A DNA stretch of 64,000 bases from a virus (IMGVR_UViG_3300046001_006061:2928-66927), one strand, 5' to 3'; positions 13,569-55,136 are shown, numbered from the stretch's first letter. A program made the numbers and translations. The notes: a model not told the origin generated them from the sequence alone.

Positions 13569-14379
13569 ATGAATAACATAAAAAATACAATATCGTTTCA
13601 ATTGATTAATGAAGAGGCAAGGGAGCTAAGTTGGAAAATACAAAATACTATTTATGTAATAAAAAAAGGTGATAGTTTATTTAATTGCCTAAGTATTGAA
13701 GATGGTGAAATTTTAGCTATATGGAAGCAAGGGAGTAGTCAGCAAATAGAGCAAAACACATTTAAAAAATAAAATTATGAAAAATCAAAAACAGCATTTT
13801 GAAAGTATGGCAAATAATTACCTTAATGACAATATTTCAGATTTTCGCACCGATTTAAAGAAACTAAACAGAAGCGACTTGTTGAGATTCGTTTTACATT
13901 GTGAGCTGTATTGGAATGACTTATTAAACATTTACGAAATAGAAAAACTGTTTAATAGCTAACAAACCACACAAACCAATTTTAAACCATTTAAGTAAAT
14001 TAGCTATTTTAGTAAATTTATAAAAATAATATTCGCACATCAATTAATCAAATAAAAAACACAAAAATTATGAAAGCAGTAAAATTTTTAGCACCAAACC
14101 AATGTTATTTTTTTCAAGATAACAAAATAGTATTTCAAAGCTACGAAACTATTATTTGCACTATTGAAAACTACGAAAATGGAAACGAACCGATAATAAA
14201 AATAACCGATTCGCAGCCACAAAGTAAAACCACAGCAAAATATTTAAATCAATTTTTGCAATTACACACAAGCTTTAAAAGCTATAAAGATATAAAATAG
14301 TGTTAAGGTTTCAAGTCCTTTAAATTGTGAGAACAGCCTTAAAACGGCTGTAAACAAACAACACAAAATAAAAATAATT

Positions 14380-15294
14380 ATGGAAACATTAACAGAAGTA
14401 TTGAAAAAAAATGATTTGCGTTTTACTATCAATTTGAATGATGATAAAACAAACTGTAAAATTGAAATTAATCTAAATGATGAATGTAAAAATGGTCATC
14501 AAGATTTTAGTATTACTGCTACATTTTGGCAAGTTGGCGAAGTAAGAAGCGACAGAAATATGATTGCGGGCGGTTGTTGTCATGATGATATTTTAAATAT
14601 TCGCCCTGACTTACAAATATTTGTTAATTTACATTTATGTGATTGGCAAGGCGTTCCAATGTATGCAGTTGAAAATGGATTTTATCATTTAAAAGAAGGC
14701 TTTAACAATACCAAGCCAAGCGAAGAAAGTTTTAAAACTAAATTTTGCGAATATTACAGATTGACTTTAAAACAGTTTGAAATATTAAGCAAGTCAGAAA
14801 ATAAAACGCATTACGCTATTTTATTAATGGATTTAGGTATTTTAGACCAATGGAAAGAAGAAGCAGACAAGGCAATTAAAATACTAGAAAATTTATGTAA
14901 TTGTGTTTTTATCTGTGATAGTGTAAAAAGCCAATTTAATGCACCCGCAGAGGCAGAAATTTACCAATTTAGAAAGAACTGTGAAGAAGGTTATTATTTG
15001 CCACAGAACCAAGAAAAAAGGCGAATAATGAAAATTCGTGCGGCTCGTAGTGCTGAAAAATTTAAAATTAAGCAAGAAATGGACAAAGCAATTTTAAAAG
15101 CTAAAATTGAACACTATGTTAAAAGCGCAGTTTTAAAAGGCGGTTTGTCACTTGATAATTTTATTTATTATTCTCATAGTTGCGAAGGCGTTTTTAATTG
15201 GAAAAATTATGGCAAACAAGTTACCGAAGCCGAATTTAACAAGTTTATGGAAGTTACAAAAATTGAAGGTATTACCTTTAAACTAGGCAAATAA
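14380..15294 (+). CDS. hypothetical early protein
   Basis: 304 aa; DECKNGH.DFSITA, GGCCHD, LHLCD..G.PMY Cys/His motifs. Confidence 0.75.
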   Translation: METLTEVLKKNDLRFTINLNDDKTNCKIEINLNDECKNGHQDFSITATFWQVGEVRSDRNMIAGGCCHDDILNIRPDLQIFVNLHLCDWQGVPMYAVENGFYHLKEGFNNTKPSEESFKTKFCEYYRLTLKQFEILSKSENKTHYAILLMDLGILDQWKEEADKAIKILENLCNCVFICDSVKSQFNAPAEAEIYQFRKNCEEGYYLPQNQEKRRIMKIRAARSAEKFKIKQEMDKAILKAKIEHYVKSAVLKGGLSLDNFIYYSHSCEGVFNWKNYGKQVTEAEFNKFMEVTKIEGITFKLGK

Positions 15295-18700: not shown

Positions 18701-19042
18701 AATAATGGCGTTTAACGAGAAGAAATATAGTAACGAAATGAAGTTACAAGAAATAAACAAACAAAAGAAAGTCACATTGTTTTTAATGCAGCAAAATCCC
18801 AAATAATGAAAGACCTCGAAAAATTGGTGAAAGAATACCCGCTTCTTACAAGCAATGAGCGCAAATTGCTTAAAAACATTCTCAACTATCATGGCATTAA
18901 CAAATCCGATGCTTCAAAAAGAATAGCGCAAGTTTTGAAAATACCACTTCAAGAAAACAAAATACTTTCAATTTTAACCGCTTAAAAATCACATCAATAC
19001 AACTATTTTATTATTTATTGGTGTCAATTAATAGGGAAAAGT

Positions 19043-19050
19043 TATATTTG
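19043..19050 (+). promoter_or_regulatory. TATATTTG promoter directly upstream of the cassette array
   Basis: TAnnTTTG, 10 nt before the first TAAC. Confidence 0.7.
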
Positions 19051-19060
19051 TAGGAGAAAA

Positions 19061-19145
19061 TAACGGGCGGACGGTTTGGGCAGGCTGCAAACCTGACCAA
19101 CTTTCCACCCTAACCAACATCGCAGCTTGCTTAAACCGTATGTTA
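19061..19145 (-). repeat. attC-like site 1
   Basis: TAAC GGGCGG ACGGTTTGGGCAGGCTGC...GCAGCTTGCTTAAACCGT AT GTTA. Confidence 0.75.
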
Positions 19146-19204
19146 GAAGCAGTTAATTAAACCTTGTGCGTGGGGTTCACGCAAGTAAATTAGAAAATAA
19201 AATT

Positions 19205-19531
19205 ATGACATTTATTCATCAGCCAACAGAATTTGAAAAACAAAAAAATGATAAAGATTTTATAGAAAGATTGAAATCATTTTGTAAAAACCAATTAGAA
19301 GAAAAACCAAAAAAAATGAGTAATAAAGATAGAATTGATTATATCTCATTCCTTCATAAGCAAAATTTGAATGGAAGAGAAGATGAGGATACGCTTTTTG
19401 AAGCTGGTATAGAAGCTGGCATAACAGAAACAGAAGAGTTTATGTTAGAATTTATTGTTAGTTTAAATCTTCCATTTACTGAAGATGAAATTACGGAAAT
19501 GTTTAATAAATTTAAAGCAAATGCAGAATAA
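19205..19531 (+). CDS. cassette 1 ORF a, hypothetical
   Basis: ATG 19205 after the leader shared with cassette 8. Confidence 0.65.
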   Translation: MTFIHQPTEFEKQKNDKDFIERLKSFCKNQLEEKPKKMSNKDRIDYISFLHKQNLNGREDEDTLFEAGIEAGITETEEFMLEFIVSLNLPFTEDEITEMFNKFKANAE

Positions 19532-19802
19532 AACATACAGTGGGATACTAATTAAATATGTTAGAGATAACAATATGATTATTTGGAAAATAGAAGAATC
19601 ACTAGCTGCTTTAAATATTTATGTCGATTGTAAAGATGAAGATAAACTAACCGATTTAGATAATGAACGAAAAGTATATTTCAAACTCAAAAAAGTATTT
19701 ATGGGTAGAGAATATGGCGAAGATATGAATATGAATTTAGCATATAACCTAAGTTTTGAAATAAATGTCCAAGCGCAAAAGGCGGAAGCAAGCAAGGTTT
19801 AA
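19521..19802 (+). CDS. cassette 1 ORF b, hypothetical
   Basis: Overlaps the ORF a stop; ends in the shared 3' flank. Confidence 0.6.
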   Translation: MQNKTYSGILIKYVRDNNMIIWKIEESLAALNIYVDCKDEDKLTDLDNERKVYFKLKKVFMGREYGEDMNMNLAYNLSFEINVQAQKAEASKV

Positions 19803-19814
19803 TTTATTGCTTTC

Positions 19815-19941
19815 TAACGGTATCGGGGCTTGTAGCAGTAGGGGATTTTGAAAAACTACTGCTCAATTAACCACCACAGCCCAATAGAAGTAAAAGGCTC
19901 AAAACTTGCACTTCTGCCCCTATTGCTACAGACCCTTGTTA
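19815..19941 (-). repeat. attC-like site 2
   Basis: TAAC GGTATC GGGGCTTGTAGCAGTAGGGG...CCCCTATTGCTACAGACCCTT GTTA; near-copy of site 11. Confidence 0.8.
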
Positions 19942-19988
19942 GCGGTAGGTTTTTTCAAATCAAGGGTTAATTTTAAAAGTTACATAAA

Positions 19989-20234
19989 ATGTTCAAAAAG
20001 AAAATAACATATTTTGTACTATATTTTTTAGAAGGAAATTCAAATAATAAATATAGTGTTTATATGACATCTAATGTAGAAAGTACAAACTCCTCCGAAT
20101 TTAATTTGCATTTTAATAATCAATGCAAATTAAATTACGAAGAAAATACGGGTTTAAAAACTGATGAAGTGGTTATCGAAAGCATTCAAATGATTTCTAT
20201 TCAAGTTTCTTTGTTTGGGTGGCGTATTTTTTAA
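19989..20234 (+). CDS. cassette 2 ORF, hypothetical
   Basis: 81 aa between sites 2 and 3. Confidence 0.6.
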   Translation: MFKKKITYFVLYFLEGNSNNKYSVYMTSNVESTNSSEFNLHFNNQCKLNYEENTGLKTDEVVIESIQMISIQVSLFGWRIF

Positions 20235-20243
20235 ACTTACCGC

Positions 20244-20370
20244 TAACGTTTTCGGGCTTTGTGTCCGTTGGCGACTTAAACTACAAATGTTAAATTGAAA
20301 AACAAATATTGATATGAGTACAAAAATTAAATCGAAGAACGAAACCGCCAATGGCACAAAACCCGTGTTA
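20244..20370 (-). repeat. attC-like site 3
   Basis: TAAC GTTTT CGGGCTTTGTGTCCGTTGGCG...CGCCAATGGCACAAAACCCG T GTTA. Confidence 0.8.
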
Positions 20371-20607
20371 GGCGAAGTTATTGATAGCAAGGTTAATCAA
20401 TTGCTGTCTTTAAGTGATGAATTTATATTCCCTGCTTACTATTCACATTCAGGTAAAACAATGTGGAAGATTTCAAATGTTTATACAAAATACGGTTCTG
20501 AAACATTGGTTTTGTGTGGCGTTGATGAAGGTATTGAAACAGCAATTGATTTGGCAATAGAACACATTTCAAAAGCTAAAGATAAGTTCTATGGTGTCGG
20601 TGTATAA
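20314..20607 (+). CDS. cassette 3 ORF, hypothetical (starts inside site 3, stops on the TAA of the next TAAC)
   Basis: ORF track plus site coordinates. Confidence 0.65.
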   Translation: MSTKIKSKNETANGTKPVLGEVIDSKVNQLLSLSDEFIFPAYYSHSGKTMWKISNVYTKYGSETLVLCGVDEGIETAIDLAIEHISKAKDKFYGVGV

Positions 20608-20730
20608 CGTTTTGCGGCTTTATGCAGTAGCGGACTTAAACCAAAAAATTTGATATGGAAAACGAAATTATAAATACAGATAAAAGTTCATTAGAACCAC
20701 GAAATCCGCTATTGCTTAAAGCTGATGTTA
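20605..20730 (-). repeat. attC-like site 4
   Basis: TAAC GTTTTG CGGCTTTATGCAGTAGCGGA...TCCGCTATTGCTTAAAGCTG AT GTTA. Confidence 0.8.
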
Positions 20731-20966
20731 TAAGCCGTTTTGGTGAATGTAAGTACAGTTGTCAATTAACACACGAGCCAAGTTGGTTTCATACAATATT
20801 GATTAAAGACTTTAGCATTTATATCGAGGAATGGATGGATGATGAAGATAATGAAATTTGTGCAACAGTTTTTACAGGCGAGAAAAAAAATGCTAATGGC
20901 TTTGCAAATACCAACTTGGCTTTATTGTTGAATGATATTGAGGAGTTCGTTAAAAATGGCTTATAA
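20655..20966 (+). CDS. cassette 4 ORF, hypothetical (starts inside site 4)
   Basis: 103 aa; stop is the TAA of TAAC at 20964. Confidence 0.65.
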   Translation: MENEIINTDKSSLEPRNPLLLKADVISRFGECKYSCQLTHEPSWFHTILIKDFSIYIEEWMDDEDNEICATVFTGEKKNANGFANTNLALLLNDIEEFVKNGL

Positions 20967-21057
20967 CGTTTGGTGGCTTTGTGTCTGTTTGCCCCTTGCG
21001 CAAAGTTTCAAGTTTACCACAAATGTTGATGGGGCAAATAGCACAAAACCGCTGTTA
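20964..21057 (-). repeat. attC-like site 5
   Basis: TAAC GTTT...GGCTTTGTGTCTGTTTGCCCC...GGGGCAAATAGCACAAAACCGCT GTTA; near-copy of site 7. Confidence 0.8.
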
Positions 21058-21095
21058 TGCGTAGTAGCGGATTATTAACGATAAATTTAATTAAA

Positions 21096-21563
21096 ATGAT
21101 GAAACATAAACAAAAACAACCTTACGGATGCGGTTTATATGCCGTTGCAAACGCCTGTAATTTAGACAACTTTATTACAGATGAAAGACTTGAAAAAAGT
21201 AAAACAGGAAATGTAATAGGGCAACTTTCAAAGTGGATGCAAGAAGATGGACACCCATTTTACATTGATACGCTTTACTATAACCACGTTGGAAAAAAGT
21301 TACCTAAAACGGCATTGGACTATAAACCAAGTGGAGAAGGAATACATTTTTTGCCTGTGCTTATAAATGTAAGATTTTCTGATGAAGGGAAAAATCATTT
21401 AGTAGGTGGGAAAATTGACAAAGAAGGCAAATTATATTTATACGATAGCCTTAAAGAAGAAATGATTGAAACAACGATGAGGCAGGTAAACAGAATGTAT
21501 CATCACGTTTACGGGTTGTTTTTGTTTATGGGTGTTGATAATGGAGAATATGTCTTTATATAG
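21096..21563 (+). CDS. cassette 5 ORF, papain-like cysteine peptidase
   Basis: Q..PYGCGLYAVAN nucleophile helix, NHLVG, LYLYDSL (Cys-His-Asp). Confidence 0.6.
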   Translation: MMKHKQKQPYGCGLYAVANACNLDNFITDERLEKSKTGNVIGQLSKWMQEDGHPFYIDTLYYNHVGKKLPKTALDYKPSGEGIHFLPVLINVRFSDEGKNHLVGGKIDKEGKLYLYDSLKEEMIETTMRQVNRMYHHVYGLFLFMGVDNGEYVFI

Positions 21564-21584
21564 CAGTAACGTAGCTATTACGCA

Positions 21585-21672
21585 TAACGTTTTGCGTATA
21601 TGAGAAGTGGCACTTGCAGAATGTTGAAAGTTAGCACGAATGTTTCTGTGCCATTTCTTATATACGCTGTTA
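21585..21672 (-). repeat. attC-like site 6
   Basis: TAAC GTTTT GCGTATATGAGAAGTGGCAC...GTGCCATTTCTTATATACGC T GTTA; near-copy of site 10. Confidence 0.85.
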
Positions 21673-21708
21673 TAAGCAGCCTTTTTATTAACTTAAATTA
21701 AAAACAAA

Positions 21709-21981
21709 ATGAGAAACTTTAAAACAAAAATTGAAGGACACGAAGAAGAGTTTGACTTTGAATGTTACGAAAATACAGAATCAATAGAAATTGGAGATAA
21801 ATATATTTTCTTTTTTGGTGGTATTGCAGACGTTCAAGTATGCGACTCTGAAAATGTAAAAGAAGAAGTAAACAAACACAATAGACCTTATCAGTACGAT
21901 AAAATTGATTTAACACACAATTTTTGGACTAAGTGTTTTAAAATTAAAGAAACAAATTTTGACCTTAGTACGGTTTTATAA
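21709..21981 (+). CDS. cassette 6 ORF, hypothetical
   Basis: 90 aa. Confidence 0.65.
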   Translation: MRNFKTKIEGHEEEFDFECYENTESIEIGDKYIFFFGGIADVQVCDSENVKEEVNKHNRPYQYDKIDLTHNFWTKCFKIKETNFDLSTVL

Positions 21982-21990
21982 GGTTGCTTA

Positions 21991-22084
21991 TAACGTTTTG
22001 CGGCTTTGTGTCTGTTTGCCCCTTGCACAAAAGTTTCAAGTTACCACAAATGTTGATGGGGCAAATAGCACAAAACCGCTGTTA
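21991..22084 (-). repeat. attC-like site 7
   Basis: Same family as site 5. Confidence 0.85.
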
Positions 22085-22136
22085 TATGCCGTTGTGGGTT
22101 GTCAAAAGGAATTTTAAAACTTAATAATTAAAAAAT

Positions 22137-22742
22137 ATGTATAAATGTAATATTTGTCCTGCTGAATTTAAAACAGAAAAGGGATTATCAAACCACAAAT
22201 GTAGGTGGATATGTAAAATATGTGGAACTAAACTTACCACACCAAAAGGTTATGATAGGCACTTGCAAAATCATAGTAACTCTGAAACAAGAAAAAAAGA
22301 ACAACAGATAAAGCAGGTTGAAGCACAAAAACAAAAAGATGAAGAATTTGCAATAAAATATCAAAAATTGATTGATATGGGTTTATTTAATCCATTACAT
22401 AATTCTGGCGATAGTGTTATTGTTTCTACATATATTGTAACAAAGCCAACTCACGAACAAAGGTTTAATAGAATGGTAAGAGTTCGGTATGAAGAGGAAA
22501 GAAGGTATGATGTATTTGATTGGATAATAGACAAAGCAATAGAACCAACAATTAACGATTTGTATAGGATTAATAATTGTATTGAGTTGAATAAACAATA
22601 TCCAATTCAATATTTAACAAAGAATTTTAAAGTAATTTCTGAATCCAATATTTTTCAAGATAGAACCAAAGCTATTGATGAGGCAACTAATAAAGGTAAA
22701 CAATATAAAGAGGCTTGTGACTTTGCTTCTATGTGTCGCTAA
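22137..22742 (+). CDS. cassette 7 ORF, tandem C2H2-type zinc-finger protein
   Basis: YKCNICPAEFKTEKGLSNH and CKICGTKLTTPKGYDRHLQNH. Confidence 0.7.
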   Translation: MYKCNICPAEFKTEKGLSNHKCRWICKICGTKLTTPKGYDRHLQNHSNSETRKKEQQIKQVEAQKQKDEEFAIKYQKLIDMGLFNPLHNSGDSVIVSTYIVTKPTHEQRFNRMVRVRYEEERRYDVFDWIIDKAIEPTINDLYRINNCIELNKQYPIQYLTKNFKVISESNIFQDRTKAIDEATNKGKQYKEACDFASMCR

Positions 22743-22752
22743 CAATGGCATA

Positions 22753-22840
22753 TAACGGGCGGACGCTTGCATTGCAGGTTGCAAAAACAATAATTATTCC
22801 TTACAGTAACTTGTCAGCAACTTGCTGCAAGCGTATGTTA
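22753..22840 (-). repeat. attC-like site 8
   Basis: TAAC GGGCGG ACGCTTGCA..GCAGGTTGC...GCAACTTGCTGCAAGCGT AT GTTA; family of site 1. Confidence 0.75.
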
Positions 22841-22899
22841 GAAGCAGTAAATTAAACCTTGTGCGTGGGGTTCACGCAAGCAAATTAGAAAATAAAATT

Positions 22900-23307
22900 A
22901 TGAAATCAACAGAAGAAGAAAAGAAAAAAGAAAAAATAGTTCAATCCGCTTACGGTAATCTTTATGAAAAATATAAAATAAACATAAATAAATACAGCGG
23001 ATTCACAGATACAAAAGAGGAAAAATTAGGATTCTCGCCATTGTCTGATGAAATTGAATATTTGGATTTTACTTGTAGTAATTTATGGAGACCAATTTCG
23101 TTAAAAGGAATAGAAAATAATAATGGGTGGATACGTATTGATAATAAACAATCAATTGAAAAAATAAATTATGTTGGATGGGCGTTCATACGTGTTTGTC
23201 GTGAAAATATTGAAGATATTTATTGTGAATATGTAGCAAATTCAATAGGCTATTTCTATGCTACTCATTACCAACCAATAATAAAACCTAAATCACCTCA
23301 TTTTTAG
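22900..23307 (+). CDS. cassette 8 ORF, phage hypothetical with DUF551-like C-terminus
   Basis: NNNGWIRI...ATHYQPIIKP. Confidence 0.6.
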   Translation: MKSTEEEKKKEKIVQSAYGNLYEKYKININKYSGFTDTKEEKLGFSPLSDEIEYLDFTCSNLWRPISLKGIENNNGWIRIDNKQSIEKINYVGWAFIRVCRENIEDIYCEYVANSIGYFYATHYQPIIKPKSPHF

Positions 23308-23348
23308 CGCAAAAGGCGGAAGCAAGCAAGGTTTAATTTATTGCTTTC

Positions 23349-23426
23349 TAACGTTTTCGGGCTTGGCGAAGTGGCTTTTGTGCGTTGGCTTGTGTGTCGG
23401 GAAGCCATTTTGCCAAACCCGTGTTA
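23349..23426 (-). repeat. attC-like site 9
   Basis: TAAC GTTTT CGGGCTTGGCGAAGTGGCT...AGCCATTTTGCCAAACCCG T GTTA; arms shared with site 12. Confidence 0.85.
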
Positions 23427-23486
23427 TACGCTGGCACGGGTAATTTAGTAGGAACTTAATTTGAAACACAAATAAAAATCAAAGCA

Positions 23487-23792
23487 ATGGCAACAGCAAT
23501 TTATGAAATACCGAACTCCGTAAAGGAAATGTTTGAACAAGGCGAAAATAGTTATCGCATAATTGACTATTCAATACAGGAAATGGACAATATCCAAAGT
23601 ATGCAACATTTCCTTGACTGCATAGGTGCAACAAGCGATAATATTGAAACAGACGATGGAACGCAAGTGGTAATTATTCATCCTGACTTTGACCACAAAC
23701 TTGTAATTGATAGTGGTGGGTTGGGCGATTTTTATTCTCACGGTTATGACGTAACTCTCTATTCGGAGACGGTCAGTAGTGCTTGCGTATAA
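23487..23792 (+). CDS. cassette 9 ORF, acidic hypothetical protein
   Basis: 101 aa; stop is the TAA of TAAC at 23790. Confidence 0.65.
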   Translation: MATAIYEIPNSVKEMFEQGENSYRIIDYSIQEMDNIQSMQHFLDCIGATSDNIETDDGTQVVIIHPDFDHKLVIDSGGLGDFYSHGYDVTLYSETVSSACV

Positions 23793-23877
23793 CGTTTTGC
23801 GTATATGAGAAGTGGCACTTGTAGAATGTTGAAATTTAGCACAAATGTTTCTGTGCCATTTCTTATATACGCTGTTA
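23790..23877 (-). repeat. attC-like site 10
   Basis: Near-copy of site 6. Confidence 0.85.
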
Positions 23878-23946
23878 CCTGCTGGTGCGGTTAATTTAGT
23901 AGAATTTTGATTTGAAAACGAATAGAAAATTTAAAAAGTTTTAGAG

Positions 23947-24192
23947 ATGGAAACACAAAAAATGTATGGAGTAGAATATAAAACAGATAGCAGTTCTACT
24001 TATGAAATATTTGAAAATTACGATGATGCGTTAGCTTTTGCTAATAGTAATGAAAATGCTATGTTTTTATTTACAGCAGACTTTAATAAGGACAGAGTTT
24101 ATTTAGATAGTGAAACTTGGAATTACGATGATTTTACCGACACTTTTATTAACCAAGAAATAATTGAAACTTATGAAATATATGGGAAGTAA
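23947..24192 (+). CDS. cassette 10 ORF a, acidic hypothetical protein
   Basis: 81 aa, D/E-rich. Confidence 0.6.
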   Translation: METQKMYGVEYKTDSSSTYEIFENYDDALAFANSNENAMFLFTADFNKDRVYLDSETWNYDDFTDTFINQEIIETYEIYGK

Positions 24193-24940
24193 GGCGAGAT
24201 TTAGTAAAGAGATTTTGCCGATAATATTAAAAGACAGAACAGCCGACCAATGGTATGTTGAGCCATTTGCAGGTGGAATGAACGCAATTTGTGATGTAGA
24301 TGGCAATAGACTTGCTAATGATAAAAACTACCACTTAATTGAAATGTGGAAAGGATTAACAAATGGCGTTAAATACCCAACAGACATACCAAAAGATTTG
24401 TATGACCTTGCAAGAGATGTTTATAATGGTAGAGAAACAAGGTTTGAACACAAAATGAATATGGCTGATGATATGGTGGGTTGGATTGGTTGGATGGGTT
24501 CTGCAAATGGTAGATTTTTTGATGGTGGATATTCTGGTAAATCAAATACCAAAATTGGAACGGTAAGAAATTACATTAAGGAAGCAATAAGTAATATTGA
24601 AAAGCAATTACCAAAGATGGTAGGTGTTAAATTTGAGAACAAAGATTATACTGAATTGCTATTACCCAATAACAGTATTATTTATTGCGACATTCCATAT
24701 CAAGGAACAAAACAATATTCAACATCAAAAGATTTTAACCATTCAAATTTTTGGAAATGGTGCAGAGAAAAGGCAAAGCAAGGACATACAATTTTTGTAA
24801 GTGAATACGAAGCACCTGCCGACTTTGAATGTGTTTGGCAAAAAGAGGCTAAATCTTCTTTATCGGCAAATGGTGTAATAGGTGGTAATAAGGTGAGTGT
24901 GGAAAAACTTTTTAAATTTTCTCCCACAAATGCTAATTAG
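24173..24940 (+). CDS. cassette 10 ORF b, Dam/D12-class DNA adenine methyltransferase
   Basis: KYMGSK, YVEPFAGG, AND.N, IYCDIPY, FVSEY. Confidence 0.9.
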   Translation: MKYMGSKARFSKEILPIILKDRTADQWYVEPFAGGMNAICDVDGNRLANDKNYHLIEMWKGLTNGVKYPTDIPKDLYDLARDVYNGRETRFEHKMNMADDMVGWIGWMGSANGRFFDGGYSGKSNTKIGTVRNYIKEAISNIEKQLPKMVGVKFENKDYTELLLPNNSIIYCDIPYQGTKQYSTSKDFNHSNFWKWCREKAKQGHTIFVSEYEAPADFECVWQKEAKSSLSANGVIGGNKVSVEKLFKFSPTNAN

Positions 24941-24964
24941 AAGCACGAATGTAGCACTTGCAGG

Positions 24965-25091
24965 TAACGGTCTGGGGCTTGTAGCAGAAGGGGAATTTGA
25001 AAAACTACTGCGCAATTAACCACCACAGCCTAATAGAAGTAATAAGGCTCAAAACTTCCACTTCTGCCCCTATTGCTACAAACCCTTGTTA
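24965..25091 (-). repeat. attC-like site 11
   Basis: Near-copy of site 2. Confidence 0.8.
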
Positions 25092-25139
25092 GCGGTTCGG
25101 GCTTGTTTTCACAAGGGTATAAATTTTAAATAAATAAAA

Positions 25140-25376
25140 ATGTCAGAGAAAAAAGTATCAGTTACCATTAAGTGTAAACAAGTAATGCACTTTGCTCAAA
25201 GTGTTGAAATGTCCGAAAGTGATTATGAGAAAATCAAAGATTTGGATTTTGAAGATGTCCACGAAATAAGAGAAAGAGAGCAGTATTCAGTTATTGAAGG
25301 ATATCTGAATTTTATGGATATTCTTGAAAGCGATGATGAATTTTTAGATGTCCAAATTACCAAAGATGAAGATTAG
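25140..25376 (+). CDS. cassette 11 ORF, acidic hypothetical protein
   Basis: 78 aa. Confidence 0.6.
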   Translation: MSEKKVSVTIKCKQVMHFAQSVEMSESDYEKIKDLDFEDVHEIREREQYSVIEGYLNFMDILESDDEFLDVQITKDED

Positions 25377-25400
25377 TAGGGTGTTTTTTAGCCTGACCGC

Positions 25401-25520
25401 TAACGTTTTCGGGCTTGGCGAAGTGGCTGAACGCGAAGCTAAATAGAATTACAAAACTTTAAAATTAAAAACGAATGATTGATAGAATTACTGAACAGCC
25501 ATTTTGCCAAACCCGTGTTA
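25401..25520 (-). repeat. attC-like site 12
   Basis: Arms as in site 9, longer loop containing the ATG of the next ORF. Confidence 0.85.
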
Positions 25521-26248
25521 GTGGCAGTACTTTTGTGAACGCAGACTGCTTTGATGTTTTTCCTTTTATTGAGGATAAATCAATTGATGCGATTATTTGC
25601 GATTTGCCTTATGGAACTACTGCTTGTAAGTGGGATAGTATCCTGCCATTAGACAAACTTTGGAATGAATACAAGCGTGTTTTAAAGCCAAACGGTGTTA
25701 TTTTACTTACTGCTTCGCAACCATTTACAACTGTTTTGATTGGAAATGATTTGAAAATGTTTAAGTATAATTTAGTTTGGGATAAAGTAGCTGTTACAAA
25801 TCCGATGTTGGCTAAAAAACAACCTATGAGATGCCACGAAGATGTATTGATTTTTTACGATAAGCAACCAACTTACAACCCACAAATGAGAGTAGGCGTA
25901 AAATGGAGTAGAGCAGGAAAAAAACAACATACAACAGATACTTTAGGGCAAAGCACGTTGTTTAATAATGGAAGCGATGAAAGTGAAATGAAATACCCTA
26001 AAAGTATTATCACATTTTCAAATGCTGACAAAACAAAAAACGAACATCCAACTCAAAAACCGATTGACTTAATGGAATGGTTGATTAAAACATATACAAA
26101 CGAAGGCGATATGGTATTAGACAATACAATGGGTTCAGGAACAACAAACTTGGCTTGTATTAAATTAAATCGCAAATCAATTGGAATAGAAAAGGAAAAA
26201 CAATATTACGATGTTGCTGTTCGGAGGGCTTCGGAGTATTGCCACTAA
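25475..26248 (+). CDS. cassette 12 ORF, N4/N6 (beta-class) DNA methyltransferase
   Basis: SIDAIICDLPYG, HPTQKP, VLDNTMGSGTT, GIEK. Confidence 0.92.
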   Translation: MIDRITEQPFCQTRVSGSTFVNADCFDVFPFIEDKSIDAIICDLPYGTTACKWDSILPLDKLWNEYKRVLKPNGVILLTASQPFTTVLIGNDLKMFKYNLVWDKVAVTNPMLAKKQPMRCHEDVLIFYDKQPTYNPQMRVGVKWSRAGKKQHTTDTLGQSTLFNNGSDESEMKYPKSIITFSNADKTKNEHPTQKPIDLMEWLIKTYTNEGDMVLDNTMGSGTTNLACIKLNRKSIGIEKEKQYYDVAVRRASEYCH

Positions 26249-26269
26249 CTATGTGATTGGCGCAACAAC

Positions 26270-27968: not shown

Positions 27969-28880
27969 ATGGAAAACGAAGAAATTCAAATTATTGATGC
28001 TGGAATTTACGAACAGCAAGACAGAGCAATCTTTGATGTGCAAATTGTTACGGCTAAAAAATATCCCCGTAATATTATGAGAGCAACCTCAAATGCTATT
28101 GCAATTGTTACTATGGACATGGAAACAGCAAAAGTATGTACCTATTCAGTTCCTAGAGGTGGAAAGTCAATTACAGGACCTTCTGTGCATTTAGCTAAAA
28201 TCTTATTGCAGCAATGGGGAAACTTGCGAGTAGAAGCAAAAGTTGTAGAAACAACCGATAGACAGTTGACAAGCGAAGCAGTTTGCTTTGACCTAGAAAC
28301 TAACATTGCAGTTAAGGTTCAAGTTAAGCGTTCTATTATGACTAGAAGTGGTAGAATGACAGACGACATGATTACTGTTACGGGTAATGCTGCAAATTCA
28401 ATAGCTTTAAGAAATGCTGTTTATAATGTAATCCCTAGAGGTGTTGTTGATAAAGTTTACGATTCAGCAAAGAAAATGATTACGGGAGATTTATCAAGTG
28501 AAACAAAATTAATTGCCAAGCGTAAGCAAGTTGTAGATGCCCTAAGAGATACTTACAACATAACCGAAGAAGAAGTATTAAAAGCAGTTGGGAAGGCAGC
28601 ACAATCGCAATTAACAACAGACGATATTATTACCTTAATCGGTATCGGGACAGCAATTAAAGACGGTGATACAACAGTAGATTTTGCTTTTAGAAACTTG
28701 AAAGGAAGTGTTATCGAAAACCCAACACCAACTAATCACGAAGAAGACCGAGTAAAATTGATGTTAAGTGACTGCAAAACCGCTAAAGAAGTTGACGAAT
28801 TAGCTAAGAACAACCCCGAAATTAGCCAAGAACTTGTAATTGCAAGAAAAGACGAATTAAAACAAGGGAAACTATTGTAA
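27969..28880 (+). CDS. putative single-strand annealing/recombination protein
   Basis: 303 aa, translationally coupled to an exonuclease; YSVPRGGK.ITGPSVHLA...WGN motif; family assignment is inference. Confidence 0.45.
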   Translation: MENEEIQIIDAGIYEQQDRAIFDVQIVTAKKYPRNIMRATSNAIAIVTMDMETAKVCTYSVPRGGKSITGPSVHLAKILLQQWGNLRVEAKVVETTDRQLTSEAVCFDLETNIAVKVQVKRSIMTRSGRMTDDMITVTGNAANSIALRNAVYNVIPRGVVDKVYDSAKKMITGDLSSETKLIAKRKQVVDALRDTYNITEEEVLKAVGKAAQSQLTTDDIITLIGIGTAIKDGDTTVDFAFRNLKGSVIENPTPTNHEEDRVKLMLSDCKTAKEVDELAKNNPEISQELVIARKDELKQGKLL

Positions 28881-53842: not shown

Positions 53843-53957
53843 TGTTTTTTTATGTCGTTTTTCTTGACGTTTCAAATATATAAATAAAAAATGCTATATG
53901 CAATTTTTTTCAAAAACTTCACATAGCTTCTGTTAGCTGCCACCTTTAGGACAGAGT

Positions 53958-54563
53958 ATGAGAGACAATAAAGGACAATTAGAATTATTAGGTTTCTTAA
54001 AAGACAACTACCATAACGGAGATGTTAATATTGCGCCTATTCTGAAAAAAATAAGCGAATTACATAATTTTGACTACAACGACATAAAAACGTATTGTCT
54101 AAATCCATTAAGAGATAAGGGTTATATGAAAGACTGTAATTATAGCGACTTGGGTGGTTTAAATAAAAGTATTCGGGCTACTTATGACAATACAAGAATA
54201 CTTACTTGTTTGACGGAAAAGGGATATAATTATTTATTTAATTTAGACAATCATGAATTATCTAAACAGCTATCACTATCCACGTTAGAAACGAACAAGG
54301 CTATAAAGACTGCAAGTATAATTCAATGGGTTGCTGCGGTTTCCACTGTTTTAATTATTTCCGCTAATTGTATAATTGATTTTTTAAATTACGACTTTAA
54401 CAAAGCAACACATCATACATCATATATGCAACAGCAGAAAGACTCGACAGACAAAGAAGCTCAAAAAAGACTACTCGACACACTGCATATTTATCGCCAT
54501 CAAATTGACAGTCTTGTGTTATTGGGTAAGACAAAAAAGCAAGTATTTTCCAAACCAAAATAG
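53958..54563 (+). CDS. cassette ORF, winged-helix-like N-terminus plus TM helix
   Basis: L..KGY...LTEKGY; hydrophobic IIQWVAAVSTVLIISANCII. Confidence 0.6.
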   Translation: MRDNKGQLELLGFLKDNYHNGDVNIAPILKKISELHNFDYNDIKTYCLNPLRDKGYMKDCNYSDLGGLNKSIRATYDNTRILTCLTEKGYNYLFNLDNHELSKQLSLSTLETNKAIKTASIIQWVAAVSTVLIISANCIIDFLNYDFNKATHHTSYMQQQKDSTDKEAQKRLLDTLHIYRHQIDSLVLLGKTKKQVFSKPK

Positions 54564-54624
54564 TGTGTGCCGACAACGTAAAACGACACTCATTAACTAA
54601 ACTCACACTTAAACAAAAAACAAT

Positions 54625-54831
54625 ATGACAACAAAATTTAAAATTGGCGACACTGTTAAACTAAAATCAGGCAGCCCAGTAATGACAATTACCAATACAA
54701 AGGTTTGGAAAAGAGTTGAAAAGAAACTTGATTGGGACGAAACTTATGCTGAATGCACTTGGTTTGACATCGACAACAAATCACATACAAAAGAGTTTCC
54801 AAAAGACGCTTTAGAAAAAATTAACGACTAA
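54625..54831 (+). CDS. cassette ORF, YodC/DUF2158-family protein
   Basis: FKIGDTVKLKSGSPVMTI...CTWFD...F...AL. Confidence 0.85.
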   Translation: MTTKFKIGDTVKLKSGSPVMTITNTKVWKRVEKKLDWDETYAECTWFDIDNKSHTKEFPKDALEKIND

Positions 54832-54964
54832 GGTAATATACCCTAATTCCTAAGAAATAAACGTGCAATTCTTTTTTGTCTGAATCTCTAATCACTCTAA
54901 CAATGCTTGACAAAGTACCGTATTTAAATTTTGACATTATGTTTTTATACATAAGGCGAGCAGC

Positions 54965-55082
54965 TAACAGCACCCTTGCGAAAATTTGCTACCTCTCGGA
55001 ACTACTGCTCCTATTGGCTTTTTTCTGCGTTGACAACTTCGTGTTCCAATACCGCAAACTATCGCAAGGCTGCGAAACGTTA
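54965..55082 (+). repeat. attC-like site 13
   Basis: TAAC A GCACCCTTGCGAAAATTTGC...GCAAACTATCGCAAGGCTGC GAAAC GTTA; reverse-complement architecture of array sites. Confidence 0.8.
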
Positions 55083-55136
55083 TTGCAAATGTAATATAAA
55101 ATACCATACAAACAAGTAAAAAGAATGATATTTTCG

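What the first reader, a model, noticed from the sequence alone, without database searches (positions are those of the whole stretch)
19061..26249. All array ORFs are inverted relative to attC polarity; the hairpin travels with the downstream gene
Seen: related hairpins share downstream but not upstream flanks (sites 1/8 precede GTTAGAAGCAG; sites 2/11 precede GTTAGCGGT...CAAGGGT), and three ORFs start inside the preceding hairpin. The isolated cassette at 53932-55082 has the same site reverse-complemented and 3' of its genes, the canonical arrangement. G.T pairs make the + strand the better-folding strand in the array. Inference: the unit is C-hairpin-GTTA-ORF-TAA, so these are antisense-built cassettes co-directional with phage transcription, unlike typical integron cassettes.
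Basis: partly seen in the sequence, partly recalled or inferred. Interest (0 to 1): 0.85.

Follow-up and report, generated by a model that had tools for sequence, protein, structure and literature searches.

The report
Phage gene cassettes built backwards
This phage carries a row of twelve swappable gene cassettes joined by folded DNA sites like those of bacterial integrons, but every gene faces the opposite way to the site, a rule that holds across many related phages and is reversed in their host bacteria.

Summary
Confirmed. Window 19061-26249 holds 12 attC-like hairpins (TAACG...TGTTA, + strand) and a terminal lone TAAC box. A covariance model built on them finds only these sites plus one reverse-complemented solo site at 54954-55092.

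The hairpin travels with the downstream ORF.
- An IMG/VR contig shares window cassette 5. Identity starts at the TAAC of site 5 and stops at the TAAC of site 6.
- Three presence/absence events among cultured Muminvirus phages break inside TAAC(GTT).
- Of 90 homology ends between phage loci, 22 lie at TAAC boxes and 3 at GTTA boxes.

Polarity is inverted only in phages. ORFs run with the site strand in 30 of 30 and 125 of 135 phage intervals. In Bacteroidota chromosomes they run against it in 64 of 69.

A Xer-like recombinase sits at the lone-box end in both. It is antisense to the sites in bacteria (20 of 20 hits) and sense in phages (181 of 181).

The claim that G.T pairs make the + strand fold better is only partly right (about 2:1).

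Phage attC clusters are published (Qi 2023). I found no published report of the inversion. This scan has noted the family before on other DNA.

The parts
19064..19817 (+). Cassette 1: hairpin site 1 (TAAC..GTTA 19061-19145), ORF 19205-19531 and a second ORF ending at 19802
   Evidence: 66.7 bits; shares both ends with cassette 8 (D6, D8)
19818..20246 (+). Cassette 2: site 2 (19815-19941), ORF 19989-20234
   Evidence: 98.3 bits
20247..20607 (+). Cassette 3: site 3 (20244-20370), ORF 20314-20607; start codon in the loop, stop codon is the TAA of the next box
   Evidence: 114.1 bits
20608..20966 (+). Cassette 4: site 4 (20605-20730), ORF 20655-20966; start in the loop, stop in the next TAAC
   Evidence: 103.6 bits
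20967..21587 (+). Cassette 5: site 5 (20964-21057), ORF 21096-21563. The whole unit recurs in IMG/VR locus L250 with breakpoints at both TAAC boxes
   Evidence: (101.3 bits)
21588..21993 (+). Cassette 6: site 6 (21585-21672), ORF 21709-21981
   Evidence: 79 bits
21994..22755 (+). Cassette 7: site 7 (21991-22084), ORF 22137-22742 with C2H2 zinc-finger matches
   Evidence: (109.1 bits)
22756..23351 (+). Cassette 8: site 8 (22753-22840), ORF 22900-23307
   Evidence: 72.2 bits
23352..23792 (+). Cassette 9: site 9 (23349-23426), ORF 23487-23792; stop in the next TAAC
   Evidence: 61 bits
23793..24967 (+). Cassette 10: site 10 (23790-23877), ORF 23947-24192 and D12-class adenine DNA methyltransferase 24164-24940
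   Evidence: 81.5 bits; PF02086, 54.4 bits
24968..25403 (+). Cassette 11: site 11 (24965-25091), ORF 25140-25376
   Evidence: 98.7 bits
25404..26248 (+). Cassette 12: site 12 (25401-25520), N6_N4 DNA methyltransferase 25475-26248; start in the loop, stop in the terminal TAAC
   Evidence: 89.2 bits; PF01555, 113.5 bits; matches in L286 and L252 start at 25401
26246..26249 (+). Lone terminal TAAC box with no hairpin after it. Its 10-nt upstream extension pairs with the GTTA extension of site 12. This is the inferred attI-like junction; in related phages the recombinase gene follows this end, but here none does
   Evidence: read directly
53932..55082 (+). Solo two-gene cassette of bacterial polarity: lone GTTA box at 53932, ORF 53958-54563 and a small ORF, then the site reverse-complemented (model hit 54954-55092, - strand)
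   Evidence: (70.5 bits)

Best explanation
The stretch is an integron-like array of twelve mobile cassettes in a Flavobacterium-type phage.

The unit. Each cassette runs from the C of one TAAC box to the TAA of the next: C, hairpin, GTTA plus about 10 nt, leader, ORF(s), about 10 nt plus TAA. Strand exchange falls in the TAAC box of the + strand. This is the strand that carries the conserved TAAC-G, the G.T wobbles and the extra bases, so it is equivalent to the attC bottom strand cut at AA|C.

The cycle (inferred). Excision between two successive boxes would give a circle. In that circle the two cassette ends pair into a roughly 14-bp extended box with a G.T at position 11. Insertion is inferred to happen at the lone TAAC box at the promoter-distal end of the array.

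The enzyme (inferred). It is a Xer-like tyrosine recombinase that lacks the integron-integrase insertion. It is encoded next to the lone-box end in host Bacteroidota chromosomes and in many related phages. This 66.9-kb record has none, so here it would be supplied in trans or lie in the unsequenced part.

What is special. In phages the ORFs, and the recombinase gene where present, read along the bottom strand, so the hairpin precedes its gene. In bacteria the same site family has the usual arrangement.

Shown: site family, unit boundaries, polarity contrast, recombinase association. Inferred: which strand is cut, catalysis, where insertion happens, why the polarity is flipped.
For: Sites and structure.

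Cassette-specific ends.
- The GTTA extension of site i matches the TAAC extension of site i+1 in at least 7 of 10 positions. This holds for 8 of 11 window pairs, 88 of 116 viral pairs and 30 of 38 bacterial pairs.
- Against the site's own TAAC extension the counts are 0, 1 and 0. Random pairs reach it 2.5-7.5% of the time.
- Position 11 is G opposite T on the model strand in 7 of 8, 83 of 88 and 26 of 30 pairs.

Breakpoints: window cassette 5 against L250; mumin6-4 against mumin6-1 and two filifjonk events; 22 ends at TAAC against 3 at GTTA, of 90.

Array-end logic in a bacterial reference (L135): recombinase gene, then a lone GTTA box whose extension matches the first site, then cassettes.

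Polarity: 30 of 30 and 125 of 135 intervals 'same' in phages; 64 of 69 'opposite' in bacteria.

G after TAAC in 13 of 13, 187 of 189 and 79 of 81 sites. [quoted passage not shown]

Recombinase.
- L135 protein: NF040815 220.4 bits; TIGR02249 199.8 bits, below its 265 cut-off.
- About 40 residues are missing where VchIntIA (2a3v) has its insertion.
- A phage homologue is 46% identical and starts about 70 nt after the lone box.
- 181 of 181 site hits lie upstream of and co-directional with the recombinase gene, in 57 of 80 phage loci (locus count from my reading of the table).
- 20 of 20 hits lie downstream and on the opposite strand in 11 bacterial loci.
Against: - No recombinase is in this record, which CheckV rates 51% complete. 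The complete mumin genome has none annotated.
- Breakpoints are resolved only to the shared 4-7 nt, so microhomology-mediated deletion is not excluded for single events.
- Within the array, cassettes 4 and 6 (like ends) are followed by like hairpins 5 and 7. Taken alone this suggests hairpins travel with the upstream ORF.
- Extra bases lie on the arm next to the crossover (5 nt against 1 nt spacer; in-stem extras 5:0, 55:11, 19:7). This is the opposite of the canonical attC, where they lie on the R''-L'' arm, so the analogy with IntI chemistry may not hold.
- The G.T bias is only about 2:1, and 2 of 12 array sites fold better on the other strand.
- ORF orientation was called by a longest-ORF rule. 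Loci in both collections were seeded with one 16-nt pattern and are not phylogenetically independent.
- 11 of 20 further bacterial recombinase loci had no site hit.
Confidence: 0.8

Rival explanations
1. The hairpins are RNA-level elements of the phage early transcript (processing, stability or translation signals, or weak terminators). They spread with their genes by ordinary homologous or illegitimate recombination, as promoter-stem-loop modules do in T4-type phages. No site-specific recombinase acts on them in phages.
For: - In phages the better-pairing strand is the mRNA strand, with G.U pairs allowed.
- Three window ORFs, and several annotated Muminvirus genes, start inside the loop.
- This record and the complete mumin genome encode no recombinase.
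Against: - The same site family, with the same strand asymmetry and the same position-11 G.T, lies antisense to the ORFs in bacteria (64 of 69) and in the window's solo cassette. The conserved features are therefore not explained by an mRNA role.
- Each cassette has its own inverted ends.
- Breakpoints sit at the box with only 4-7 nt shared.
- 57 of 80 phage loci that encode the recombinase have arrays abutting it.
- An added RNA role in phages is not excluded.
Confidence: 0.1
2. Canonical polarity: the + strand is the top strand, the crossover is at + strand G|TTA, and each hairpin belongs to the upstream ORF as in ordinary integron cassettes.
For: - Extra bases lie on the 5' arm of the + strand, which is where a canonical top strand has them.
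- Cassettes 4 and 6, with like ends, are followed by like hairpins 5 and 7.
- Many ORFs stop in the TAAC box, as ordinary cassettes often do (the comparison is recalled; the stops are).
Against: - Every mapped breakpoint is at TAAC and the downstream hairpin is retained.
- The array starts with a full hairpin and ends with a lone TAAC box.
- ORFs that start in the loop would be split by every exchange.
- Bacterial arrays of the same family, anchored by a recombinase gene and a lone GTTA box, define the opposite strand assignment.
Confidence: 0.04
3. The array is a fossil. The cassettes were assembled elsewhere or long ago, and are now fixed accessory genes that no longer move in this phage lineage.
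For: - No recombinase in the record.
- No close relative of this phage was found with which to show turnover at this locus. The 25-nt right flank had 0 matches in IMG/VR. The best relatives of a flanking protein are at most 69% identical, and only 3 site hits turned up in those 80 loci.
Against: - All 12 sites keep intact boxes, stems and matching cassette ends.
- Near-identical cultured phages (over 99.9% identical flanks) differ by whole cassettes.
- Cassette 5 and the site-12/methyltransferase junction recur in unrelated contigs at about 90-93% identity.
Confidence: 0.06

Closest known systems
Clusters of attC sites lacking an integron-integrase (CALINs) in phage genomes (Qi, Rajabal, Ghaly, Tetu, Gillings 2023, Front Microbiol, PMC9892861; outline, section 3.4 and found passages read)
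   Same: - Arrays of attC-type hairpins between small genes in virulent phages.
- DNA methyltransferase cargo.
- No integrase in the phage.
- One of their phages (Polaribacter P12002L) infects a flavobacterium.
   Different: - Their main text reports 17 CALINs, each with at least two predicted attC sites, and says cassettes are oriented as in bacteria or 'divergent'. It does not describe a systematic inversion.
- 'Flavobacterium' occurs 0 times in the main text.
- P12002L gives no hit with my site model, so this is a different site family.
Classical integron cassettes and attC sites (IntI, attI, attC; Bouvier et al. 2009, PMC2727003, passages read)
   Same: - An imperfect hairpin bounded by ...AAC and GTT... 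boxes.
- A G after the AAC of the exchanged box.
- Cassette ends that complete the box after circularisation.
- A crossover at AA|C, equivalent to G|TT.
- A lone box at the recombinase end of the array.
- ORF stops inside the box.
   Different: - ORFs read along the bottom strand, so the hairpin is 5' of its gene.
- The unpaired bases lie on the arm next to the crossover, not on the R''-L'' arm.
- The box stem extends to about 14 bp with a fixed G.T at position 11.
- The associated recombinase lacks the IntI insertion.
- In phages the recombinase gene follows the array and is co-directional with it.
Promoter-carrying cassettes such as toxin-antitoxin pairs in sedentary chromosomal integrons. 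That they have their own promoter is from Richard et al. 2024 (PMC13108822, passage read). That some are inverted is recalled, not seen in a call
   Same: Cassettes whose expression does not depend on the integron promoter.
   Different: As far as I recall, these are a minority within arrays of ordinary polarity. Here all 12 cassettes of the array, and 125 of 135 intervals in other phage arrays, are inverted, together with the recombinase gene.
Promoter-early stem-loop (PeSL) modules of T4-type phages
   Same: Stem-loops that flank small accessory genes in a plastic early region and mark module boundaries.
   Different: As I recall, PeSLs shuffle by homologous recombination and have no recombinase, no cassette-specific inverted ends and no bacterial counterpart. 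I did not test this with any call.

Membership tests
Integron gene cassette / attC site | Imperfect hairpin bounded by an inverse core (...AAC) and a core (GTT...) | tested here: met
   13 of 13 window sites have TAAC...GTTA. 14 of 21 stem pairs show compensatory changes. Model scores are 61-114 bits.
Integron gene cassette / attC site | The core at the start of a cassette complements the inverse core of that cassette's own site, so a circular cassette rebuilds the site | tested here: met
   At least 7 of 10 matches beyond the core in 8 of 11 adjacent pairs, against 0 of 11 for a site's own two ends. This fits either choice of crossover box.
Integron gene cassette / attC site | Crossover at G|TT of one box (AA|C on the bottom strand) | tested here: met
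   Breakpoints fall within TAAC or TAACGTT of the + strand. 22 ends lie at TAAC against 3 at GTTA. Resolution is 4-7 nt, so the exact phosphate is not shown.
Integron gene cassette / attC site | Extrahelical bases on the R''-L'' arm, the arm that is not exchanged | tested here: not met
   The unpaired spacer is 5 nt on the TAAC arm and 1 nt on the GTTA arm. In-stem extra bases are 5:0 in the window, 55:11 in viral and 19:7 in bacterial sites.
Integron gene cassette / attC site | ORF sense to the top strand, with its site 3' of the ORF | tested here: not met
   Array: 11 of 11 intervals have the ORF on the site (bottom) strand. Met only by the solo cassette at 53932-55082.
Integron (complete) | Integron integrase with the IntI-specific insertion in the catalytic domain, next to attI | tested here: not met
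   No PF00589 match in the 66.9-kb record. The recombinase beside related arrays scores below the TIGR02249 cut-off (199.8 against 265; 150.5 for the phage protein) and lacks about 40 residues against 2a3v.
CALIN (cluster of attC sites lacking an integrase) | Two or more attC sites called by IntegronFinder with no integrase nearby | not testable with these tools
   IntegronFinder and its attC model are not available here. By my own model there are 12 clustered sites and no recombinase.
Xer-like recombinase-associated cassette arrays of Bacteroidota and their phages (the family as defined by my model R1) | TAACG...TGTTA hairpin with a one-sided spacer, cassette-specific extended boxes and a position-11 G.T | tested here: met
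   Window: 13 of 13, 8 of 11 and 7 of 8. The same features occur in viral loci (187 of 189; 88 of 116; 83 of 88) and bacterial loci (79 of 81; 30 of 38; 26 of 30).
PeSL-type phage regulatory stem-loops | An early promoter joined to a terminator-like stem-loop, exchanged by homology | not tested
   I ran no promoter or terminator scan on the sites. I rejected this on other grounds (cassette-specific ends, bacterial counterpart, recombinase).

The most novel reading that the evidence does not exclude
Bacteroidota phages run their own branch of the integron system. It uses a Xer-like recombinase without the IntI insertion and sites with mirrored geometry. All coding sequence has been flipped onto the recombining (bottom) strand.

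The flip would be adaptive in two ways.
- The recombination hairpin becomes the 5' leader of its gene, with start codons in the loop.
- It would work as an expression diode between two cassette pools that share one recombination chemistry. A phage cassette captured by a host array, or a host cassette captured by a phage array, lands antisense and stays silent. Anti-defence and defence genes could then be exchanged physically but not functionally.

The solo bacterial-polarity cassette at 53932-55082 would be one such capture.
Probability: 0.3. Interest if true: 0.9.

Novelty: new variant of a known kind. Interest (0 to 1): 0.75.

Why it matters
How integron cassettes are made, and why gene and site have a fixed mutual orientation, are long-standing open questions. 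One site family here occurs in two mirror-image builds, split by host chromosome versus phage. Cultured, near-identical phages (the Muminvirus isolates on Flavobacterium sp. LMO6 and LMO9) differ by whole cassettes.

That makes three questions testable: strand choice, cassette genesis, and the role of orientation in expression.

It also suggests that the plastic early regions of many flavobacterial phages are shuffled by site-specific recombination rather than only by homology. These regions hold methyltransferases and other likely anti-defence genes. A recombinase without the IntI insertion would serve folded-DNA sites.

IntegronFinder-type surveys require the IntI insertion to call an integrase (recalled). 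They would likely call these arrays integrase-less or miss them.

Tried and rejected
- Rfam: nothing in the array. The only match in the window is a twister-P3 ribozyme elsewhere. No tRNA.
- Close relatives of this phage, to find an empty site or cassette turnover at this exact locus. The 25-nt right flank gave 0 matches in IMG/VR. Relatives of the flanking protein 27969-28880 are at most 69% identical, and their 80 loci held only 3 site hits. The empty site was therefore not tested.
- Polaribacter phage P12002L, a CALIN phage of Qi 2023, has no hit with my model. It cannot link this family to the sites they assayed.
- Other isolates added no events. Mumin6-3 carries the same deletion as mumin6-4. 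The arrays of mumin6-2, mumin9-3 and lillamy9-6 look unchanged from their annotation tables; I did not align them.
- My first G.T count let the alignment run into loops and misplaced two boxes. I replaced it. RNAalifold's pair table suggests a far stronger G.U bias, but it counts only pairs it accepts, so I do not rely on it.
- Exception L083, a 'bacterial' MAG contig with 3 'same' intervals. All 12 ORFs of at least 90 aa are on one strand. PHROG matches were found for 2 of 9 proteins, one a methyltransferase. It looks phage-like but this is not settled. Exception L030 was not followed up.
- HUH or IS200-type hairpin transposition: considered from the hairpin-plus-tetranucleotide look. Dropped because of the tyrosine recombinase association. 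No search for HUH proteins was run.
- Rows dropped before counts.
  - One search used only loci with at least 3 hits (19 bacterial loci). I left the single-hit loci out when copying the table, about 16 of 120 rows by my recount. Intervals shorter than 120 nt or longer than 3000 nt were set aside (2 bacterial, 1 phage).
  - One search used 49 loci with at least 2 hits, out of 70 loci with hits and 80 searched. 2 intervals were set aside.
  - One search used 207 viral hits, of which 18 had no locatable boxes. It used 110 bacterial hits, of which 29 had no locatable boxes: 106 of the 120 rows, plus 4.
- Literature searches that found no report of the inversion or of this phage site family. Nilsson 2020 (PMC7077304, found passages only) mentions no hairpins or integrons. 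Supplements were closed.

Full report
WHAT IS THERE

The window is 64 kb of a 66.9-kb linear IMG/VR virus record. CheckV rates it 51% complete. GC is about 32%. It has DNA matches only to cultured Baltic Flavobacterium phages. All ORFs of at least 150 aa between 14.4 and 31.4 kb are on the + strand.

From 19061 to 25520 there are twelve imperfect hairpins, each bounded by TAAC and GTTA (coordinates). A thirteenth TAAC box at 26246-26249 has no hairpin after it.

- The invariant parts are TAACG at the 5' end and TGTTA at the 3' end.
- The stem is supported by covariation: 14 of 21 pairs have compensatory changes in 13 sequences.
- A covariance model of the sites (R1) finds the twelve on the + strand and one more on the - strand at 54954-55092. 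It finds nothing else in the window below E 0.001 apart from weak reverse-strand echoes of the same sites.
- Rfam has no family for them.

CASSETTE ENDS

The 10 nt after each GTTA are the reverse complement of the 10 nt before the next TAAC, not of the site's own TAAC.

- At least 7 of 10 positions match in 8 of 11 adjacent pairs. The same test gives 0 of 11 for a site's own ends, and 7.5% for random pairs.
- Position 11 is the exception. It is G opposite T on the + strand in 7 of 8 pairs.
- So every ORF is boxed by its own inverted repeat, as in integron cassettes. This fits a crossover in either box, so it does not settle polarity.

WHICH HAIRPIN GOES WITH WHICH GENE

Evidence inside the array is mixed.
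- Cassettes 1 and 8 share both ends and the outer part of the upstream hairpin. Cassettes 2 and 11 share their upstream hairpin at 94-96%.
- Cassettes 4 and 6, which have like ends, are followed by like hairpins 5 and 7.

Comparison with other genomes settles it.

(a) The window's own cassettes.
- IMG/VR locus L250 matches window 20948-21601 at 92.8%.
- In the alignments, near-identity begins at the TAAC of site 5. It runs through the hairpin, the GTTA and ORF 21096-21563, and ends at the TAAC of site 6.
- The sequence before the first box and after the second is unrelated.
- Matches to L286 and L252 start exactly at 25401, the TAAC of site 12, and run into the methyltransferase.

(b) Cultured phages. 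Filifjonk9-1 and lillamy9-1 have 12 and about 10 such sites, all co-directional with their genes. Mumin6-1 has 11.
- Mumin6-4, and mumin6-3, lack about 500 bp present in mumin6-1. The missing piece is one hairpin plus the gene after it. The junction is a 7-nt TAACGTT shared by the two boxes, and the next hairpin is kept.
- Filifjonk has a 1.55-kb block inserted. Both junctions lie in TAACGTT.
- Filifjonk also has one extra cassette at the very end of the array, inserted at the lone TAAC box.

(c) All-against-all BLAST. I compared 73 phage sources (70 IMG/VR loci with site hits, the window, L001 and L002), keeping matches of at least 250 nt and at least 88% identity.
- This gave 90 distinct homology ends away from locus edges.
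- 22 lie within 12 nt of a TAAC box, 3 within 12 nt of a GTTA box and 65 elsewhere.
- Redundancy among related phages was not removed.

POLARITY RELATIVE TO BACTERIA

One 16-nt degenerate pattern from the sites was scanned in GTDB genomes and in IMG/VR.
- R1 gave 120 hits in 80 bacterial loci, mostly Bacteroidota MAGs.
- R1 gave 207 hits in 80 viral loci.

For each interval between adjacent sites I compared the longest ORF on the two strands, with a ratio threshold of 1.3.
- In 19 bacterial loci, 64 of 69 intervals have the ORF opposite to the site strand. 4 are the same and 1 is ambiguous. Three of the four 'same' cases are in one phage-like contig, L083.
- In the window, filifjonk and lillamy, 30 of 30 are the same.
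- In 49 IMG/VR loci, 125 of 135 are the same, 8 ambiguous, 1 opposite and 1 a strand switch.

The features that define the site strand are the same in both groups.
- G after TAAC and T before GTTA: 187 of 189 viral sites, 79 of 81 bacterial sites.
- A 5-nt spacer on the TAAC arm against a 1-nt spacer on the GTTA arm.
- The position-11 G.T: 83 of 88 viral pairs, 26 of 30 bacterial pairs.
- Stem wobbles, G.T against A.C: 240:126 viral, 100:64 bacterial.

So the genes are flipped, not the sites.

A BACTERIAL REFERENCE AND THE RECOMBINASE

In a Flavobacterium MAG (locus L135), a 344-aa tyrosine recombinase gene comes first. A lone GTTA box follows, and its extension matches the first site. Then come cassettes with sense ORFs and sites on the opposite strand. 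This fixes the exchanged box as the one that reads TAAC on my model strand.

The protein has these properties.
- It matches NF040815 ('XerA / integron integrase') at 220.4 bits.
- It matches TIGR02249 at 199.8 bits, below its 265 cut-off.
- Against VchIntIA (2a3v) it aligns in two pieces. 23 residues stand where the integrase has 65, so the IntI insertion is absent.
- Homologues at E below 1e-60 occur in 78 of 121 sampled genomes of that family, often with the gene's 3' end at a contig edge.

Geometry in bacteria. In 9 of 20 further loci with room on both sides, plus L135 and L133, all 20 site hits lie downstream of the gene and on the opposite strand. The other 11 loci had no hit.

Geometry in phages.
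- One complete 50-kb IMG/VR phage (G006) encodes a 266-aa homologue, 46% identical. Its start codon is about 70 nt after the lone TAAC box of a nine-site array.
- Its relatives occur in at least 80 viral contigs.
- In 57 of those 80 loci (my count from the table), all 181 site hits lie upstream of the gene and on the same strand.

The recombinase therefore keeps its place at the lone-box end, but in phages its gene is flipped along with the cassette ORFs. The window's record has no such gene, and neither does the complete mumin genome by its annotation.

HOW IT COMPARES WITH attC

Same as attC: boxes, cassette-specific ends, a lone box at the recombinase end, and the G after AAC. Bouvier 2009 reports that G for the R' box of most attC sites.

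Different from attC: by definition the extrahelical bases lie on the R''-L'' arm. Here the extra bases are on the arm next to the crossover. The recombinase lacks the IntI insertion, which MacDonald et al. 2006 found to bind the extrahelical bases (I recall this; I did not read that paper).

I therefore file the array as integron-like, not as a canonical integron.

THE G.T CLAIM

- With DNA parameters the + strand folds better in 10 of 12 array sites and in the solo site's equivalent strand. The gain is usually 1-3 kcal/mol. Sites 7 and 11 go the other way.
- The stem bias is 15:7 in the window and is not significant alone. It becomes significant only in the larger sets.

LITERATURE

Qi et al. 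2023 (PMC9892861) described attC clusters in phages, including methyltransferase cargo. They showed that IntI1 recombines five of six tested phage sites. Their main text does not mention Flavobacterium phages or a systematic inversion.

Six searches found no report of the inversion or of this phage site family. Nilsson 2020, which published the Muminvirus genomes, does not mention the hairpins.

This scan's own earlier notes record the family in many other genomes. Two follow-ups also say the genes face the opposite way. I read those after my own counts.

LIMITS

- No experiment shows which strand is cut or that the recombinase acts on these sites.
- Breakpoints are resolved to 4-7 nt.
- The orientation counts use a simple ORF rule.
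- The loci come from one seed pattern and are related to one another.
- No empty site or close relative of this particular phage was found.

Noticed in passing
window 14298-14366 (+): A type-P3 twister ribozyme (RF03154, 55.1 bits, above the gathering score) lies about 14 nt upstream of ORF 14380-15294, at the start of the + strand gene block.
   Followed up: no
window 53932-55082: A solo two-gene cassette of bacterial polarity sits between - strand genes. It has a lone GTTA box at 53932, and its extension pairs with the box before the reverse-complemented site. The target looks like a simple GTT secondary site.
   Followed up: partly
window 19020-19060: Just before site 1 there is a TTG ... 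TATATTTG stretch. It resembles the Bacteroidetes -33/-7 promoter consensus as I recall it, so the array may start right behind a host-type promoter. No scan was run.
   Followed up: no
window 19146-19204 and 22841-22899; 19772-19814 and 23306-23348: Cassettes 1 and 8 share a leader of about 65 nt, with a small GC-rich hairpin, and a tail of about 49 nt. Their ORFs differ. The inner stems of their hairpins also differ, yet stay complementary.
   Followed up: partly
window 22137-22742 (+): The cassette 7 protein starts with C2H2-type zinc-finger matches (PF13894, 33.4 bits; PF00096, 27.4 bits). That is unusual cargo for a phage.
   Followed up: no
L342 6886-7686 (-), a complete 50-kb IMG/VR phage, and loci L343-L422: Many phages carry a complete platform: array, lone TAAC box, then a 266-aa Xer-like recombinase gene, all co-directional. 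Site hits were found in 57 of 80 loci.
   Followed up: partly
G-handle hits: In many Flavobacteriaceae assemblies the recombinase gene sits with its 3' end about 100-300 nt from a contig edge. This is what a repeat array that breaks assemblies would produce.
   Followed up: no
L083 (Bacteroidetes MAG scaffold): This is the only 'bacterial' locus with a phage-type polarity array (3 intervals). It has unidirectional small ORFs and a methyltransferase. It may be a prophage or a mis-binned phage contig.
   Followed up: partly
extended boxes, position 10: Beside the fixed G.T at position 11, position 10 is T opposite T in 2 of 8 window pairs, 26 of 88 viral pairs and 4 of 30 bacterial pairs.
   Followed up: no
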